From the NCBI GenBank assembly GCA_013115125.1, contig JABANN010000128.1, forward strand, positions 1 to 64,000: a stretch of DNA of 64,000 nucleotides, in the 5' to 3' direction. The notes under the pieces are model-generated. The model searched no databases. It had not been told where the DNA came from and was given only the letters and a program-made list of their open reading frames with translations. Shown piece by piece: positions 1-50,176 of this stretch. Position 1 is the first letter of the stretch; each line of letters begins with the position of its first letter. Both the position numbers and the translations under genes were made by a program. Source of the DNA: Perkinsus olseni (lineage: Eukaryota).

Positions 1-119
1 CACCTGGGCGAGCGCGTCACGGACCAATGTTTGCACCACTCTACACTACACAAGTTTCGTGTAGGGTATCAGATAATCCGCAGCCGTAATTTTGAGCGGG
101 CGGCACGAAAAAATCAAAG

Positions 120-338
120 AAAAAGGTGTGCTCCGGGGATCGAACCTGGGCCTTCGGATAGACGTGTTGAACTGACGCGAAACCATCTTAAGATGTCGGA
201 CCTGCAGCCTTGCGATGCACGGTTTGGCAGGTAGGACAACACAGTGCATTGTGGTTAGCGCAATAGAGGCCTCAACAACATCTTTTATCGTAGGCCGGGA
301 ACCACTATTAGAATTGGAAACTACTAGTACTAGCGCAC
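120..338 (-). pseudogene. tRNA-like element with B-box and T-run terminator (copy 1)
   Basis: The minus strand reads CCAGGTTCGATCCCCGG-AGCACAC-C-TTTTT (T-arm/B-box, 3' acceptor-like strand, Pol III terminator). GTGCGCT at 338-332 pairs 6/7 with AGCACAC. No clean D-arm or anticodon arm is visible. Confidence 0.4.
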
Positions 339-7790: not shown

Positions 7791-8068
7791 AGCGACCCGT
7801 TCAGATAGGTTTTTGATGAAGGAATGTGCTTACATATGAACCAACTCACACATCCGCAGGGGCGTTGCATGCAGCGGCTGTGGCGCCAGTCGCGTCACCT
7901 AGCGTGATAGAAAACAATGCAACAGCAACAGCAGCAGCCGACGCTCTCATGACTGTTTGGGCCACATTCAGAGATTATGCTTCGAACGACCCAACGCGAC
8001 GAGTATCGCTCAAGACCTGCTCTTCCATCACGCGCTGACTTTGGGCAAGCGAGACAACAAAGTCAATT

Positions 8069-8171
8069 AAAAAAGTACGCTCCGGGGATCGAACCTGCGC
8101 GGGCTGGTAGACCCGTTGAATTGGCGCGAAATCCTTAGGGGTCCCGGTTGCGTTGCGTCGTAGTAGCGCAT
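8069..8171 (-). pseudogene. tRNA-like element with B-box and T-run terminator (copy 2)
   Basis: The minus strand reads ATGCGCT...GCAGGTTCGATCCCCGG-AGCGTAC-TTTTTT, with 6/7 acceptor-like pairing over about 97 nt. It is homologous to the element at 120-338. Confidence 0.4.
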
Positions 8172-8184
8172 ATCTGCTCAGGGG

Positions 8185-10775
8185 GCAGGCTGGCAACGGA
8201 AAGACGCGAGCGTTGCAAGGGGATGGTAGTAGTGGAGGTAGCAGCAGTTGTAGTGCTTCTGGAGGTAGTGGAAGGAGGATGAGGCTTTCATCATCAGCTC
8301 AGCCACGCTCTGGCATGTAACCCTGGTCCTAGGAATGGTGTCCATCTGTAGTACTCTGGCTACTCTGTTGGGACCGTTGCGCTGCATCTTAGCAGCTCTC
8401 ATCGTTAGCGCAAAGTGATATTCTCACTGTCATCAAGTTCCTCTCCCGGTTTTACCCCACCCTATGCTATCAACCTTCTCCAGTACACTTGGTCGGTCCA
8501 TTCTTCGACCCCTCGCCGTCCGAGCAACACCGCGATTCCTAGCTGCCGCCGCGCCGTCCCAACGATGGTTCTCTGAAGTAGTAGCAGCAGCAGCAGCCCA
8601 GGCTGCCGTCTCCGGCGACGGAAACCTCACACTGAAGCCGGCCGGCGTCCAGGTAACTGTATCGCGTCTCGCGAGGTATCAGTGAGTACCACACGGGCTC
8701 TTCTTCAGCACATAATAGATGTTAGCAAAAAGCGTAACATCCCCACAGCTCTCAGGCTAACCGTAGACTCCGGTGGATGCGGTGGCTTCCAGTAAGTTGA
8801 GTTCGTCGTTCTATCGAAGTTTGCTGAGGGGCAAGGTATGGCGGGCTTCTCAGATACTATTTCGACCTCGTTCCGGCGGGCTCAGCGACTGCAACAGACA
8901 CTAAGGTGGAGGCTGATGATGGGTCTGTCGTGATGCTAGTAGACGCGTTGGTAGTACAGGGAAGGGTAGAGCTTTATGCCGCTGTGTCGGCTCTTCGCCT
9001 TGGCCCCTTCGTAAATCTATTTGTTCCCTCACGGTGCTCCTTTCTCAGTCTGAATCCTATCTCGATCACTGCAAGGTGGACTTTGTTGAGGAGATGATCG
9101 GGTCGAAGTTTGTGGTAGTATACAGCGCTAGTGGGCCCCGCTCTCCCCTCCTGCTACCCCCGGCATCATCTCAGGTTAGCGAGAACAAGTTGGCGGAGTC
9201 AGCCTGTTCCTGTGGTGCGAGCTTCAATGTAGGCTTTTAAGTTCACTCTACTGCAGCCGGTAGTGAGGCCTTTGTTGTATTACCACCCGATAGTATCATT
9301 AACCGTGCATCAATTTTTACACTGTACCAGACAGTAGGAAGTGGCATACAAGCTTTGCGTTAGTGTTCAGCTCAATCAGCAAATGCGGCAAGAACGTGAG
9401 GACCGCTGCCAGCGCGTTATGGCCTGCTACTGGCATTCAAAGGCTCTTCAGTAGCCCGGCTGCAGGTAGTCGCATAAGGCCACTGGCTGCCGTTGTCAAG
9501 CTACTGCTGGAGACCTCGTGCTTCCATCACGAAACTGTTCTGTTGACTGTGGTACAGTACGTTTGGAAAATACAGGTGAGGATTTAAGTCGCGGACAGGT
9601 CTCTTCACGGGCCCTTCACAATTACCATGGGATGCTGTCAAACTTATGCGGCGGCTATGTTCAATGGTGGAAGCATAACTGATATCACAAGGCAAGCTAT
9701 GCGGTACTGAAGCGGTGGATGTGTTCGGTGCCTCAGAATCCTGATGTAATGATGGGTGGCCGTTCATCGCGAGCAGTGCCTGTGTGCACAGCCCCACGCC
9801 TGTTCTCGAATGGTCCTGTTAGTGTTTTCCTTTTGTCGTTCGAGATGACTGTCGAAGAAAGTGATCACCAAGACAGTGGTCAGCTAGGAGTTGGCAGCCC
9901 TCTTCAAGGACAGTCATCATTCGATGCAGCCCGGTCACCACCGAACGGCCACTGCCCGAGCGGCAGACCTTGGACTCGCTTGGGGTATCGTGAGATCATC
10001 TTGTTCTTCCGTCTTCCAGGTGAGCCCATGTGTCACGCTGCTGGGCACGACTCGCCCGTGCCACCGATGAGCTACAATGCGCGCCATGTGGCAGAGTGCC
10101 CTCGCCTTTGCATGTTGCATCTTCTCGTTACAGACGGTATTATGAGACGGATGTTAAAGACAGCTGTGGGATGCTTGGGAGTCACATCGGCTAGCTTCCT
10201 GTTGCTTAAGACTCGGAAAAAATCTCCGACAGGTGAGTGGCAGCACAACATTATCAGCAAGCTTTCGATGGTAGTGAGCCCGCTACTAGACCTCGGACTC
10301 GAGCCCTCGCGGCTGGATCATTGTACGACCACCGTCGTCTTTCTCAGACGCCCATTTTTCGCGGTCTGCTAAATCTCTTGCTTCTTTAAAAATCGTGTCA
10401 TACTTTCAGCACAGTTCATCGAGAGTGCCAAGCTCTCTCTGGATACCCAACCCCACCACGGAAAAGACTTTCCTGAACTTCTTAATGATGTCCTTCTTTT
10501 CTTCCGTCTGGTCTTTGTAAAGTCTCTCTACGAGAATGTTGAAAAGTATCGGATACGCAGGGAGTGTTTGTCGTTCTGCGCTTCTGATAGCCGCAGATCT
10601 CACATTATCAACAGCCGTGTAGAGACTTCCTCTTTCGTGGTGGAACTTCGATTGATCAAGCTCTTCGAGCGGATTCAGATCGGTATTCCAGCGGCCCGTG
10701 AGGGAATGCTAACAAGGGTTCGCAGGCTGGGTACTCGGGCCTGCACGCCTCCGGGAGGCCGCCATTCTTTGAGAA
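8185..10775. repeat. Segmental duplication unit B (paralog of about 340-2845)
   Basis: Collinear nucleotide similarity to unit A. Confidence 0.9.
8464..9240 (+). CDS. Mitochondrial A-type Fe-S cluster assembly protein (IscA/HesB, ISA2-like), copy 2
   Basis: Same exon structure and motifs as 586-1356. Differences are mostly in the presequence. Confidence 0.93.
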
Positions 10776-11110
10776 GCTACGACAAAAAAGGGCAGTATGC
10801 CGACGCGGGACCGTCCCATGGGGTGGCTTCGTGGCTCACCTCGTCTCGAACGCTTTCCTGTTACTATTCCTCGGGCATCCGAGGACGCGCGCGTTCCTAT
10901 GGCGTCGCCCATGAGGTCGAATTCCAGTAGCTGGGACCTCTCTGTGGCGGCTAGATTGTTGGTGAAGACGCAATATGTGGTGTTGGTTCGGAAGTTGAAG
11001 TACGTTGGAGCAGTGTTCACGTTAGTCCGAGTGATTCGCAGGAATCGTTCGGCCGTGTTGTTAGCCATTTCGGCGGACCATGCGGCCGGAAACACGAATC
11101 GGACGAGCAC
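9930..11110 (-). pseudogene. Decayed ORF, possibly a gag-like remnant (copy 2)
   Basis: Homolog of 2030-2850: ILVERLYKDQTEEKKDIIKKFRKVFSVVGLGIQRELGTLDELC*KYD..., and PSVTRRCNMQRRGHSATW. Several stops and frameshifts. Confidence 0.35.
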
Positions 11111-46368: not shown

Positions 46369-47142
46369 TTAATGGCTCCTCAGAGTGGACTTGTAGGAAG
46401 CGCTAGAGGCGGTCTTGCTGCCAGTAGAGGTACTGAAGGCCTTCCTGTTGTCAGCCACCTTCCTTCCGACACCAGGGAGAACAGGGGAAGGAGCCCCAGC
46501 CGTGTTATGGGCCTTAGCAGGGTCAACGGTACTAGCATCTCTCACCGCACCCACGGTCTTTGCCTCCTTCAAAACCTCCGCGGGCTTAGCCTCTTTCACA
46601 ACATCAGTAGTAGCAGGAGCAGTCTGCTTAGTCTGCTTTACAGCATCAGCGGACTTAGTCTCGACCTCCTTGATCAGACCAACAGGCTTCACGTCCTTCA
46701 TGTCTTTATCGCCTCCGCCGCCGACCACTTTGTAGGCCTTCTCGACGTCCTTCACCACAGGGACCTTCTCGGCCTCGTCGGCCACTAGCTCTTCACCCTC
46801 CTTCTCAGCCGCTGTCTTTATACACTTCTCCTCCACCACATGCTTAGCCTCCTTCACATAACGGGGAGTGTTCTTCACAACAACACTAGTGGCGGTGCTC
46901 ACAACGGACCAGCTCCGACCAAACTGAGACTTCCCATCTCTGTCCAAGTCCAAGCCTTCTTCCGACCGAGTCAACAGGTAGTCGTAGCCCTCGCAGGTCT
47001 TCTGCCAAACATACCCAGCGGCCTCCTTAGCTTTGGCGTAGGCGTCAGAATCGACCACCTTGTGATAGGTTTCCGAACCGCACATGGAGCCGTCGACACG
47101 AGCCTGCTCCTGTGCTGATAATTCCAATGGATAACTACTCAT
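46369..47142 (-). CDS. Hypothetical helical protein, paralog 2, with Lys/Glu/Val-rich repeats (VKEAK/VKDVE), intronless
   Basis: 257 aa ORF with the shared core VWQKTCEGYDYLLTRSEEG. Confidence 0.8.
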   Translation of the reverse strand: MSSYPLELSAQEQARVDGSMCGSETYHKVVDSDAYAKAKEAAGYVWQKTCEGYDYLLTRSEEGLDLDRDGKSQFGRSWSVVSTATSVVVKNTPRYVKEAKHVVEEKCIKTAAEKEGEELVADEAEKVPVVKDVEKAYKVVGGGGDKDMKDVKPVGLIKEVETKSADAVKQTKQTAPATTDVVKEAKPAEVLKEAKTVGAVRDASTVDPAKAHNTAGAPSPVLPGVGRKVADNRKAFSTSTGSKTASSASYKSTLRSH

Positions 47143-47298
47143 TACAAAATACTATGATACTGTGAAAAAAGTTGCGGTAGTAGGTTCTCGAAGTAGCGTT
47201 GAGGAAATGCAAGATTCGGCAAGATTGCAAGATTAGGCTAGAAGATACCGACCACACTTCAAGACTGAACACAGTGCTGTGTATTGATAGAAACGTCG

Positions 47299-47825
47299 TC
47301 AGTCGCCGCGCCATATGTTGCCACACTTAACGCATCGGTAAAAGGTTGTCATCGGCTCATCAGCACTCCTGATCTGCATCTGCTTGAAGTAAGCCCGGTT
47401 AGAGTCGCAGCCATCAGCAGGGCAAACAGCTGAGGAGAGGTGGTCATGGAGACGGACAGAGGGAGGCAAGAGTTCCTACCTTCAGTCTGCTGAACATCCT
47501 TCCATGCATCTGGTCCTCCGAGGACATCCTCAACCACAGGGCCACCTGGTAATGGCAAGAGAATGACAAAAATGACAGCCGCCGGGATTGAACCCGGGTC
47601 TCTCGACAGACAGGGCTCACCTTCCTTGTGTAATATCTCCTTCTGCGTCAGCTTCTCGGAGATGGGGAATAAATAAGGACATGTCCGGCACCAGTACCTG
47701 CCACCGCGACCATCAACCCAAGTACAGCAACCTCTTCCCCCTCCTCCTTCTCACTTCATCGTATCATGACCAGCTTGTAAGACTAGTAAATTCCCGCACG
47801 TCGGGCAAAACAACACTCCGGACAT
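47299..47825 (-). CDS. POLR3K: RNA polymerase III subunit RPC10/C11, 4 exons
   Basis: LFCPTCGNLL, YWCRTCPY, EDVLGGPDAW, RAYFKQMQIRSADEPMTTFYRCVKCGNIWR (TFIIS-like RSADE zinc ribbon). Confidence 0.93.
47568..47615 (-). promoter_or_regulatory. Intronic tRNA-derived B-box with T5 in the RPC10 gene
   Basis: Intron 47546-47620 reads GTGAGCCCTGTCTGTCGAGAGACCCGGGTTCAATCCCGGCGGCTGTCATTTTT. It matches the B-box GGTTCRANNC, forms a CCGGG/CCCGG hairpin and is followed by TTTTT. Confidence 0.55.
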
Positions 47826-48197
47826 TACTAAGAACAACTATTCCGTGCTTTCTGACACCTCTAGCTGTGGAACTCAGAAGCCTCGGTATGATAGAGAAAT
47901 ATAGCCATTATCAGCGGATATCAGGTTACAAGTTGCTTTCGTTGGTAGACGTACAGTGTTGTAGTGGAACGTAGCATCACCAGCCAGACACGACGTCTGG
48001 TGATGATGAAGGAAGAAGACGACGATGGGGAAGAAGAAGAAGGAACATGGGTGGCACGGGTCACCGGTACGGTAGACGTAATTCGACCACTCAATCTTCA
48101 AGCTGTATTTTACGTATTCAGGCACTGCCCTCAGTTGCTACCTGGCCTGAAAGAAGGAATGGTGTTCCAGTATCTCCCCAAACCTCATATCAACGGC

Positions 48198-50176
48198 TCA
48201 AATTCCTGCCCAGGTTCGAACCCCACAACCACCATATGTTCTCTCGCCACCAATAATACCTTCTGTAGGTTTCTTCTCCGCCAGGGACTTCTTAGCGTTC
48301 TTCCCTCGGTATTTCTGTATGTTCTCCTTCCGCTTCGCCTGAGCTGCTGCCTGCTTCTCCTTGACCTCTCTGCTCCTCGCCGCCCTACATACCACAACCA
48401 TCACAACTCCTCCCCCCATCCCACCATCCTACCACTCCTCGCGTGACTTGTTCTTCTTCTTATCAATCGCCTTCTGAGCCTTCCTCAACTTATGGACATC
48501 ATCATGGACCTTCTCACCAGCAGCTCGCTTCATCGCCTGCCACAACACTCAACTGCCCCTTCCACGCCCTTCAAAAGCTATCCCCATATCATGACTAGGT
48601 CGTGCTCAAGCTAGCTTCTCCTACACCCTACATTCACTCTGCTTCTATGGTCCCAAACTACAAGACTCGAACTACAACCACCGCGACAGTGTACATATCG
48701 CCATCCCCGACAATACTACCCTCTCAATAGCCTTGTCTTGACTAAGTTTAACCCTCTCCTCTGCAGTGGATGCCTGGGTTATCTGCTGCTGCTCCTTCTC
48801 GGCCTGCTCTATCTCCTTCTCTAAGCGTTGCCGCTTGGAAACCTTCTTCTCCTTATGCTCCTCGACTGAGAGATAGTGAAAAGCCGATACAACGATTCGA
48901 ACCCACAACCTCGGCGAGGAAATCATCAGCGCCAACCCGCTCGGCCACATCGTCAAGATATTCCTACCATCAGCGGCTCTCTTCTTGAAGTTGAAGGAGC
49001 TGAAGTCAAGATCTTCCTTAACGTTAGCCTTCTCCTCTAGCTCCTCCTCCTCCCTCTCCTTCCTCTTAGCCGCAATAGCTGCCTTCATCTCGGCCTTCTT
49101 CTTTCCACCATTCTTGGCCTTCTTTTTTCGCTCAGCAGCATCAGCCTTCTGCTTCGCTCTTCGAAGTCTCTTAGCCTCAGCAGCATCTTCACCCTGACAG
49201 AATGACGCTCAGCGTCCCCCCAATGGACGGGTGCCCGTCAGAGATCACTGACAGGAATTCTCCTAGACAACCTTGCCCCGCATGATTCGAGCTCAACCCA
49301 AAGATACGCGGGAACGATTGAATAGCATCCAAGCTACAGTACTGCTAACGGTTAGTCTGAGTTGCGGAATACCCGCGATATTTAACAATCATTGAACCCT
49401 ACGGAAGTGTTCAATAGACTTCCCCTCTCGAATCCCAGAATCGAATTTTGCGCCCAAAAGTGGATCCCGGGAGCGCTTTCTAAGCTCAGGAGAGCTCCAT
49501 TGAAGGCCCGGAATGATCGGGCGAGCGCATCGACTACCTCCTCGTTCTCCTTAGCTGCCTTCTTCCACTCCTTCTGCGATTCCCGAGCCTCCCTGACCAA
49601 CTCGAGAGATTCCAGAATAAGGGACCGTGCCGATTCTCCCACCTCAAAGCTTCGATTTTGGCGTGAAGTTTTTCTCGAAGCTCCGCACCAGATACGGGAC
49701 GGGTGACTTCTGAGGACGGAAGGCGCAGTGAAGGCTACGACAGTCTGATGAACGCTCTGCGGAGGCATCCCCCTTCCCCTCTGTGGGCCACTCAAGAGCT
49801 ACTAGGCTCGACAGGGAACATATCACGGCCACGACTCTACCCGTCTATTACTAGCTTTCTTCTTCTTGGCATTCTTCTTCGCCCCAGAGATCTTTTCCTG
49901 CTCAGCTTTTCGTTTGCTTAGAACCTCCTCCAACACCCGAGTAGTGGTCTTAGCATTGCGAGGGTCCAACTGCCTGCTGTGGAAGCCCGCCTCCTGTACT
50001 GTTAGCGGAGAATCGCCGAAGGTTATCGTTTGAAGGTACTGATGAGCCGGAATCAAATCGATCGTTTGATCGATTACGTCCCGTATCTCCCTATACGTGC
50101 TCCGAAGAGCCTGCTTGCTAGGTGCCTTGGACGAGGGCGCCTCTGGAGTCTTCTGCACTGATGAAGGGACAGTCAT
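48198..50176 (-). CDS. SURF6: SURF6/Rrp14 family nucleolar protein, multi-exon
   Basis: N-terminal IDLIPAHQYL (Rrp14-like); C-terminal AMKRAAGEKVHDDVHKLRKAQKAIDKKKNKSREEW...KRKENIQK; highly K/E/R-rich. Confidence 0.82.

What the first reader, a model, noticed from the sequence alone, without database searches (positions are those of the whole stretch)
47546..47620. tRNA-derived B-box and Pol III terminator inside an intron of the Pol III subunit RPC10 gene: possible autoregulatory circuit
Seen: the 75-nt second intron of RPC10/C11 carries, on the sense strand, GAGACCCGGGTTCAATCCCGGC followed within about 10 nt by TTTTT. This is a B-box consensus with a T-arm-like hairpin, resembling the 3' half of tRNA-Asp/Gly, and it is preceded by CTGTC. 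Established: Pol III machinery genes can be controlled by embedded Pol III elements (yeast TFC6 via the ETC6 B-box, mammalian POLR3E via an intronic MIR, plant TFIIIA via a 5S-mimic exon), and C11 is the termination/cleavage subunit. Inference: TFIIIC/Pol III binding here could roadblock Pol II or affect splicing, tuning RPC10 to Pol III activity. The T-run might instead be only part of the polypyrimidine tract.
Basis: partly seen in the sequence, partly recalled or inferred. Interest (0 to 1): 0.75.

Follow-up and report, generated by a model that had tools for sequence, protein, structure and literature searches.

The report
tRNA-like B-box inside RPC10 intron
A short intron in the gene for a small RNA polymerase III subunit of the shellfish parasite Perkinsus carries a perfect copy of the DNA motif that marks tRNA genes, and a distant relative seems to keep it, which hints at a feedback switch but does not prove one.

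Summary
Window 47620..47546 (minus strand) is the 75-nt second intron of a four-exon RPC10/C11 gene. Spliced RNA contigs from four runs confirm all three introns. The intron holds an exact B-box (GGTTCAATCCC), then 11 nt, then TTTTT, on the sense strand. The organism is Perkinsus. The element is not a tRNA. ARAGORN and Rfam find nothing, there is no A-box, and the "T-arm" pairs only with a 6-nt loop. No whole genome and no orthologous DNA were available. One relative's read-through ORF (P0004) aligns to the intron. At the positions its residues fix, the B-box is unchanged (5 same, 0 different, 6 undetermined) and so is the T-run (4/0/1). The rest of the aligned intron has 13 of 23 changed, and exon-4 silent sites have 11 of 23 changed. 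The hypergeometric P is 0.058 for the B-box alone and 0.003 with the T-run. The T-stem changes in the relative do not compensate each other. I read it as a DNA-level, extra-TFIIIC-like site (confidence 0.35). A neutral relic and a splicing element remain serious rivals. The autoregulation idea is untested.

The parts
47299..47825 (-). RPC10/C11 (small Pol III subunit) coding region. Exons are 47825-47755, 47697-47621, 47545-47480 and 47429-47299.
   Evidence: The splice model gives 114 aa, identical to P0005, which is named RPC10 [Perkinsus olseni]. Supported by Pfam PF01096, PDB best hits RPC10, and spliced RNA contigs in 4 of 4 runs.
47546..47620 (-). Intron 2, 75 nt, GT..AG, in frame and free of stop codons
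   Evidence: The joint 47542>47618 (cut +3) appears in 4 of 4 runs. The open frame is visible in the ORF 47349..47750.
47584..47594 (-). Exact B-box consensus match, GGTTCAATCCC (intron positions 27-37)
   Evidence: The relative P0004 shows 5 positions the same, 0 different and 6 undetermined.
47581..47602 (-).
   Evidence: It is the only match in the window with up to 3 mismatches. The stem flanks changed without compensation in the relative.
47568..47572 (-). T5 run, 11 nt after the B-box (intron positions 49-53)
   Evidence: The relative shows 4 the same, 0 different and 1 undetermined.
47573..47578 (-). CTGTCA block just before the T-run, unchanged at its determinable positions in the relative. 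A similar CTGT[AC][AC] sits 24-27 nt before the 3' splice site in all three introns.
   Evidence: Intron sequences and the position table. A noisy window-wide scan of intron candidates showed no general peak.
47698..47754 (-). Intron 1 (57 nt)
47430..47479 (-). Intron 3 (50 nt). Its position after ...QTE is shared by many distant eukaryotes.
   Evidence: Read-through ORFs turn to unrelated residues right after QTE/QTD.
47838..47839 (-). Probable spliced-leader acceptor AG, leaving a 5' UTR of about 13 nt
   Evidence: The X20 contig carries 9 loose letters at 47839. Their reverse complement equals the 3' end of Perkinsus SL1 (passage of PMC3101222).

Best explanation
Intron 2 of the Perkinsus RPC10/C11 gene carries a sense-strand module that looks like the last third of a tRNA gene: a B-box, about 11 nt, then an oligo-T run. 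It has no A-box and no foldable tRNA. I think the B-box most likely acts as DNA, as an extra-TFIIIC-type binding site inside the transcribed region of a Pol III subunit gene. Shown: the motif, its place in a real and efficiently removed intron, and its apparent retention in a deeply diverged relative in which the flanking 'T-stem' bases changed without compensation. Inferred: that TFIIIC binds it. Also inferred: that a bound factor slows Pol II or alters splicing of this in-frame intron and so ties RPC10 output to the state of the Pol III machinery. Its origin from a tRNA gene 3' end is plausible but was not demonstrated.
For: The intron has an exact B-box plus T5 at tRNA-gene spacing on the sense strand. 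The host gene is the Pol III subunit C11/RPC10. The intron is genuine. The relative's ORF P0004 aligns collinearly with the intron: 9 of 14 residues are identical in a non-coding frame (E 0.010 in a 651-nt search), and the offset to exon 3 agrees to within 1 nt. The B-box shows 0 changes in 5 determinable positions and the T-run 0 in 4, against 13 of 23 in the rest of the aligned intron (hypergeometric P 0.058 and 0.0033). The divergence is deep. Exon-4 third positions are 11 of 23 changed, yet the sequence is compatible with an identical protein. The neighbouring protein is only 60% identical to the P. marinus model. The codons flanking the B-box on both sides changed in a way that destroys the hairpin, which argues for a DNA motif rather than an RNA T-arm. 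There are precedents. Yeast ETC sites are B-box-like, conserved between species, and include ETC6 at TFC6 and ETC8 at RPB5-CNS1 (passages of PMC3395662). Polr3e carries an intronic MIR occupied by Pol III (abstract in the search listing, PMC5358760).
Against: There is only one relative, and it is known only as a protein translation. Six of the 11 B-box positions are undetermined, and P = 0.058 for the B-box alone is weak. No occupancy or expression evidence links the site to TFIIIC or Pol III. All four runs show the intron cleanly spliced. Whether Perkinsus has a B-box-binding TFIIIC was not examined. Known yeast ETC sites tend to lie in divergent intergenic regions, not in introns. A B-box plus T4 also arises by coincidence in a coding region of this same window, so such motifs are less rare than shuffles suggest. 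In 80 distant RPC10-like metagenome loci there was no sense-strand B-box from 700 nt upstream to 200 nt downstream of the exon-4 match, so the feature is not general to this gene.
Confidence: 0.35

Rival explanations
1. It is a neutral relic or coincidence. Either a decaying scrap of a tRNA gene 3' end was caught in a lineage-specific intron, or a chance B-box arose there. It has no function, and its apparent conservation in one relative is luck or a locally low substitution rate.
For: No A-box is present. No tRNA is detected by ARAGORN or Rfam. The T-loop is one base short (read from the sequence). The hairpin is lost in the relative. The intron is spliced normally in 4 of 4 runs. A coding-sequence coincidence of the same composite motif exists at 19246..19221. 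The B-box-only conservation test gives P = 0.058 from 5 positions.
Against: B-box plus T-run show 0 of 9 determinable positions changed, against 13 of 23 around them and 11 of 23 silent exon sites. The composite motif is expected 0.01 times per window by shuffling. It sits in a Pol III subunit gene.
Confidence: 0.3
2. It is a splicing or RNA-level element. The conserved blocks would be intron signals, such as a branch-site region, a U-tract, or pairing with the 5' splice site, that only resemble a B-box and a terminator.
For: CTGTCA plus the T-run lie 27-33 nt before the 3' splice site. Introns 1 and 3 of the same gene carry CTGTAC and CTGTCC with 24 nt remaining after them (read). The minimum-energy fold pairs the 5' splice-site bases 2-8 with GGGUUCA of the B-box. 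One low-depth contig retains the intron (X7, depth 3.4), and the intron is in frame.
Against: The fold is unremarkable: z = -1.0, and 36 of 200 shuffles fold as well. The B-box lies 39-49 nt from the 3' splice site, outside the usual branch zone. A scan of 1226 raw and 611 ORF-restoring intron candidates showed no CTGT peak at that distance, although that candidate set is noisy. An exact 11-nt B-box match would be an odd accident for a splice signal.
Confidence: 0.2
3. It is a nested Pol III transcription unit. TFIIIC at the B-box, with a degenerate A-box in exon 2, would recruit TFIIIB and Pol III to make a sense RNA of about 80-90 nt that ends at the T5 and interferes with Pol II, as the MIR does in Polr3e.
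For: The T5 follows at exactly tRNA-gene spacing and is kept in the relative at its 4 determinable positions. TGACGCAGAAGG at 47650..47639, 56 nt upstream, differs at one position from a relaxed A-box consensus. That consensus is recalled from memory and the match was read by eye.
Against: Neither A-box pattern searched found a match between 47000 and 48500. The A-box-like stretch is coding sequence. The only unspliced contig runs through the T-run into exon 3 (X7, 47518-47649). Assembled contigs cannot reveal short RNAs, so this is not a test.
Confidence: 0.07
4. It is a binding site for some other DNA-binding factor (an intronic enhancer or promoter element) that only resembles a B-box.
For: A related block, CAGGTTCGATCCCCGGAGC, is identical in two paralogous copies upstream of duplicated genes at 91-182 and 8040-8131. 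This shows that such motifs recur near Pol II genes in this genome.
Against: There is no evidence for any such factor. The match to the B-box consensus is exact, and those copies too are followed by T-runs at tRNA-gene spacing.
Confidence: 0.08

Closest known systems
Yeast extra-TFIIIC (ETC) sites, especially ETC6 at TFC6 and ETC8 at RPB5-CNS1
   Same: Both are a solitary B-box-like motif without a tRNA, lying next to or in a gene of the Pol III or shared polymerase machinery, and kept between species (passages of PMC3395662; TFC6 autoregulation from the abstract start of PMC3334521 in the listing).
   Different: Yeast ETC sites lie in intergenic, often divergent, promoter regions and share a 10-base extension of the B-box. 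This one lies in an intron on the sense strand, is followed by an oligo-T run, and is in an alveolate. TFIIIC occupancy is unknown.
Mammalian Polr3e intronic MIR
   Same: Both are a Pol III-type element inside an intron of a Pol III subunit gene and are conserved among relatives (abstract in the listings, PMC5358760).
   Different: The MIR is a full SINE with a promoter, is antisense, and is occupied and transcribed by Pol III. Here there is only a B-box plus a T-run in sense orientation, with no A-box and no evidence of transcription by Pol III.
tRNA gene 3' end / tRNA pseudogene fragment
   Same: Both have a B-box, about 11 nt, and an oligo-T run at the spacing seen at the end of a tRNA gene.
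   Different: There is no 5' half, the T-loop is one base short, and no covariance-model or ARAGORN hit appeared. The donor tRNA could not be identified.
Plant TFIIIA 5S-rRNA-mimic exon
   Same: The idea is the same: a Pol III-system gene carrying a mimic of a Pol III product or promoter for feedback (recalled from memory; no paper read here).
   Different: That mimic acts as a structured RNA that controls alternative splicing. Here the RNA hairpin is not conserved.

Membership tests
RPC10/C11 (POLR3K) gene | A C-terminal TFIIS-type zinc ribbon with the RSADEP hairpin and an N-terminal zinc ribbon, in a protein of about 110 aa | tested here: met
   PF01096, E 1.1e-19. Best PDB hits are yeast and human RPC10. 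The 114-aa product is identical to the entry named RPC10 [Perkinsus olseni].
tRNA gene or pseudogene | A cloverleaf detectable by tRNA finders or a covariance model | tested here: not met
   ARAGORN finds 0 genes, with or without introns allowed. Rfam finds nothing at gathering threshold and no tRNA hit at E<=10 on 701 nt or 125 nt.
tRNA gene or pseudogene | An A-box 30-60 nt upstream of the B-box | tested here: not met
   Neither A-box pattern matched between 47000 and 48500.
tRNA gene or pseudogene | A T-arm with a 5-bp stem and a 7-nt loop | tested here: not met
   Read from the sequence: 3 of 5 pairs form in the 7-nt register, and 5 bp form only with a 6-nt loop. The hairpin is absent from the minimum-energy fold.
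tRNA gene or pseudogene | A B-box followed by an oligo-T terminator just after the acceptor strand | tested here: met
   GGTTCAATCCC, then 11 nt, then TTTTT.
Extra-TFIIIC (ETC) site | A B-box consensus without an accompanying Pol III gene | tested here: met
Extra-TFIIIC (ETC) site | TFIIIC occupancy without TFIIIB or Pol III | not testable with these tools
   No occupancy data were available.
Extra-TFIIIC (ETC) site | The motif is conserved between related species above the background | tested here: inconclusive
   One relative, seen as protein only. B-box: 5 same, 0 different, 6 undetermined. Rest of the aligned intron: 10 same, 13 different. P = 0.058.
Extra-TFIIIC (ETC) site | Location in an intergenic region, often a divergent promoter region (yeast) | tested here: not met
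   The site is intronic. The yeast feature is taken from passages of PMC3395662.
Nested Pol III unit of the Polr3e-MIR type | A complete internal promoter (A-box plus B-box) and Pol III transcripts | tested here: not met
   There is no A-box. Transcripts could not be tested with assembled contigs.
Dispersed repeat (SINE or introner-like element) | Further copies elsewhere | tested here: inconclusive
   There is no other copy in the 64-kb window. The genome is not held.

The most novel reading that the evidence does not exclude
Perkinsus uses an intronic, sense-oriented TFIIIC/Pol III landing site inside the C11 gene as a sensor of Pol III-machinery availability. Occupancy would throttle Pol II through the gene or shift splicing of this in-frame, stop-free intron, whose retention would add 25 residues to the C11 linker. 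This would be a feedback circuit kept across deeply diverged Perkinsus species, and an alveolate instance of Pol III self-regulation arrived at independently of yeast ETC6/TFC6 and mammalian Polr3e/MIR.
Probability: 0.2. Interest if true: 0.75.

Novelty: new variant of a known kind. Interest (0 to 1): 0.5.

Why it matters
Embedded Pol III elements are known to control Pol III machinery genes in only a few cases, in yeast and mammals. A conserved B-box in an intron of the termination/cleavage subunit gene of an alveolate parasite would suggest that this kind of self-sensing has arisen repeatedly. It would also give a compact and easily tested example, because the intron is only 75 nt long. If it proves to be a relic, it serves as a caution: exact B-box plus T-run motifs turn up by accident even in coding sequence.

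Tried and rejected
- **Whole genome.** None is held, so the genome-wide intron count was impossible.
- **Orthologous DNA, metagenome scan.** The scan with the exon-4 region returned 80 loci, all 68% identical or less and none from Perkinsus. None had a sense-strand B-box from 700 nt upstream to 200 nt downstream of the match, and one had an antisense B-box. These loci are too distant to count for much.
- **Orthologous DNA, other collections.** Scans of genome contigs and viral contigs with P0004 found no relative.
- **More read-through ORFs.** The 'shorter' length class gave none. The antisense wobble-matched frame gave none. The representative search gave 22 further proteins, all distant eukaryotes.
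- **Test of tRNA derivation.** Only 4 tRNAs were found in the fetched loci. The intron segment's best local score was 12, and 52 of 200 flank-shuffled controls reached it, so the test is uninformative.
- **Relaxed ARAGORN thresholds.** These gave obviously spurious calls with giant introns (18 at -ps90, 133 at -ps80) and were rejected.
- **Rfam on the two other B-box elements.** Only weak snoRNA-like noise appeared.
- **RNA structure.** The intron fold gave z = -1.0.
- **CTGT position scan.** A scan over 1226 raw and 611 filtered intron candidates showed no peak.
- **RNA contigs.** No contig ends at the T-run, and the intron interior is covered only in X7. Contigs cannot show RNA ends or levels, so nothing follows from this.
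- **Fungal origin.** I first assumed a fungus. The named cluster members disproved that.

Full report
**What is there.** Read on the minus strand, 47825..47299 is a four-exon gene. The exons are 71, 77, 66 and 131 nt and the introns are 57, 75 and 50 nt. The spliced product is 114 aa. Exon 4 matches the TFIIS-type zinc ribbon (PF01096, E 1.1e-19). Its best solved relatives are the Pol III subunit RPC10/C11 of yeast (52 bits) and human (44 bits), ahead of TFIIS (about 36 bits) and Pol I RPA12 (28.7 bits). An exact look-up shows that the 90% cluster of this protein holds an entry named RPC10 of Perkinsus olseni. That entry (P0005) is identical to the spliced product. The cluster also holds a fused Perkinsus marinus model (P0006) and two MMETSP transcripts. 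The window therefore comes from Perkinsus, an alveolate parasite of molluscs, and not from a fungus as I first assumed.

**The intron is real.** I laid assembled RNA contigs of four runs from four studies on 47000-48100. Two runs are on record as RNA. The other two are only guessed to be RNA but yielded spliced contigs. Each run has one contig that joins 47429>47480, 47542>47618 (equivalent to 47545/47621 with GT..AG) and 47695>47753. Only X7 also has a low-depth contig (depth 3.4, 47518-47649) that keeps intron 2. That contig carries A>G at 47619, which turns the GT of the 5' splice site into GC. At that depth the change may be a sequencing error. One contig (X20) carries nine loose letters at 47839 whose reverse complement is the 3' end of the Perkinsus spliced leader SL1 printed in PMC3101222 (passage). 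The mRNA therefore appears to be trans-spliced about 13 nt before the ATG.

**The motif.** Intron 2 (47620..47546) holds the quoted 22-mer at 47602..47581. The exact B-box consensus match GGTTCAATCCC lies at 47594..47584. Eleven further bases follow, then TTTTT at 47572..47568, all on the sense strand. The spacing is that of the end of a tRNA gene. Beyond this the tRNA likeness is thin:
- ARAGORN finds no tRNA in the window, with or without introns allowed.
- Rfam finds nothing at gathering threshold and no tRNA-model hit at E<=10, even when only 125 nt are searched.
- There is no A-box.
- The 'T-arm' makes 5 bp only with a 6-nt loop (read from the sequence).
- The minimum-energy fold of the intron does not use the hairpin and is unremarkable (z = -1.0).
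- A comparison with the only four tRNAs I could obtain was uninformative.

**Chance.** The window holds 5 B-box matches against about 1 expected. It holds 4 B-box plus T4 composites against 0.01 expected, and 0 of 200 shuffles reach 4. Inspection tempers this. The copy at 19246 lies in the coding sequence of a short-chain dehydrogenase (residues EGIRFNSTPGSFG; its paralogues encode EG[IV]RYN without the motif), so it is an accident of coding. The copies at 146 and 8095 are paralogues within a 2.7-kb segmental duplication. That leaves two independent non-coding cases in 64 kb. The motif in the intron is unlikely to be pure chance, but the shuffle null overstates how unlikely.

**Conservation, the key test.** No genome is held, and none of the DNA collections contained a Perkinsus relative. 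I therefore searched the protein collections with the unspliced open frame that runs through exon 2, intron 2 and exon 3. One hit, P0004 (88 aa, from an unnamed assembled contig), is a read-through ORF from a relative. It contains the 3' two-thirds of intron 2, then exon 3 (22 residues, identical), then an unrecognisable intron 3, then exon 4 out of frame.

Its exon 4 is compatible with an identical protein but needs at least 12 synonymous changes in 26 codons. Third positions there are 12 the same, 11 different and 3 undetermined. The window's species and P. marinus share only 60% identity in the neighbouring protein. Divergences within this genus are therefore deep.

Against that background the intron aligns collinearly. 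VCRETRVQSRRLSF in the window matches VHRTTQVQSHHLSF in the relative, in a non-coding frame, and the distance to exon 3 differs by 1 nt. I counted only nucleotide positions that the relative's residues fix unambiguously:

| Region | Same | Different | Undetermined |
|---|---|---|---|
| B-box | 5 | 0 | 6 |
| T-run | 4 | 0 | 1 |
| Rest of the aligned intron | 10 | 13 | 12 |

The hypergeometric P for no change is 0.058 for the B-box alone and 0.0033 for the B-box plus the T-run. The codons on either side of the B-box changed (CGG to CAR on the 5' side; CGG CGG to CAY CAY on the 3' side). These changes leave at most two stem pairs in the relative. If something is conserved, it is the linear motif and not an RNA T-arm.

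This result is suggestive, not decisive. It rests on one relative seen through amino acids, and most wobble positions are unseen. The CTGTCA plus T-run block may be a splice-related signal. Introns 1 and 3 of this gene carry CTGTAC and CTGTCC with 24 nt remaining to the 3' splice site, against 27 nt in intron 2 (read). A noisy window-wide scan showed no general peak.

**Is the intron old?** Among the 22 other representative hits, 17 have the residues on either side of the intron-2 site contiguous. Five have in-frame inserts at a different, more upstream place (read by eye). Many of them turn into unrelated sequence right after QTE/QTD, which is the position of intron 3. Intron 2 therefore looks specific to the Perkinsus lineage, and it comes with four extra residues (GGPV) at the junction.

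**Interpretation.** My best reading, at confidence 0.35, is an extra-TFIIIC-like DNA site inside the RPC10 gene. Whether it binds TFIIIC, blocks Pol II, alters splicing or gives feedback is inference only. Precedents exist in print:
- Yeast ETC sites are B-box-like and conserved between species, and they include ETC6 at TFC6 and ETC8 at RPB5-CNS1 (passages of PMC3395662).
- TFIIIC represses its own TFC6 (abstract start of PMC3334521 in the listing).
- An intronic MIR interferes with Polr3e (abstract in the listings).

The plant TFIIIA example is recalled from memory and was not checked. The rivals are a neutral relic or coincidence (0.30), a splicing or RNA-level element (0.20), a true nested Pol III unit (0.07) and another DNA-binding factor (0.08). 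Four literature searches (14, 15, 15 and 12 papers listed) showed no title about a B-box in an RPC10/RPC11/POLR3K intron. That is a limited search of open-access text, not proof of absence.

**Verdict.** It would be a new variant of a known kind if real, and it is of moderate interest.

Noticed in passing
window 91-182 and 8040-8131 (minus strand): Two paralogous non-coding elements lie at the edge of a 2.7-kb segmental duplication (327-2929 matches 8160-10855 at 79.5% identity). They share an identical 19-nt block, CAGGTTCGATCCCCGGAGC. The block contains an exact B-box and is followed after a few more bases (10-11 nt after the B-box) by T5-T6, like the intron module. No tRNA or Rfam family matches. 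Their function is unknown.
   Followed up: partly
window 19221-19246 (minus strand): A B-box plus T4 composite lies inside the coding sequence of a short-chain dehydrogenase (residues EGIRFNSTPGSFG). It is a coding coincidence, and it shows that the shuffle null underestimates chance occurrences.
   Followed up: yes
window 47838-47839: The RPC10 mRNA contig of X20 carries 9 loose letters that match the 3' end of the Perkinsus spliced leader SL1. This suggests trans-splicing about 13 nt before the start codon.
   Followed up: partly
window 47619: The only intron-2-retaining contig (X7, depth 3.4) has A>G on the plus strand, which changes the GT of the 5' splice site to GC. It could be an allele with weaker splicing or a sequencing error.
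   Followed up: no
window 47546-47620: Intron 2 is a multiple of three in length and has no in-frame stop. Its retention would insert 25 residues into the linker between the two zinc ribbons of C11.
   Followed up: no
window 47299-47825 and 46369-47151: The P. marinus database model (P0006, 327 aa) fuses RPC10 to the downstream gene and skips the four residues GGPV at the exon 2/3 junction. Here the RNA contigs of the two genes are separate (ends near 47285-47308 and 47161) and they include GGPV, so that model looks mis-annotated.
   Followed up: partly
window 18.9-30 kb and 30.4-37 kb: A tandem array of at least six diverged short-chain dehydrogenase-like paralogues (57-80% identical) lies at 18.9-30 kb. 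A second set of duplicated segments lies at 30.4-37 kb.
   Followed up: no
window 48213-48223 (plus strand): A fifth B-box match (GGTTCGAACCC) lies antisense within the transcribed upstream neighbour. No T-run follows it. It is probably chance.
   Followed up: no
window 48028-48029: X20 shows G>A and a 3-nt GAA insertion in a GAA-rich stretch of the upstream neighbour. This looks like a strain polymorphism.
   Followed up: no
introns at 47698-47754, 47546-47620 and 47430-47479: All three introns carry CTGT[AC][AC] with 24-27 nt left before the 3' splice site. This may be a Perkinsus intron signal. A crude scan of the window did not confirm it.
   Followed up: partly
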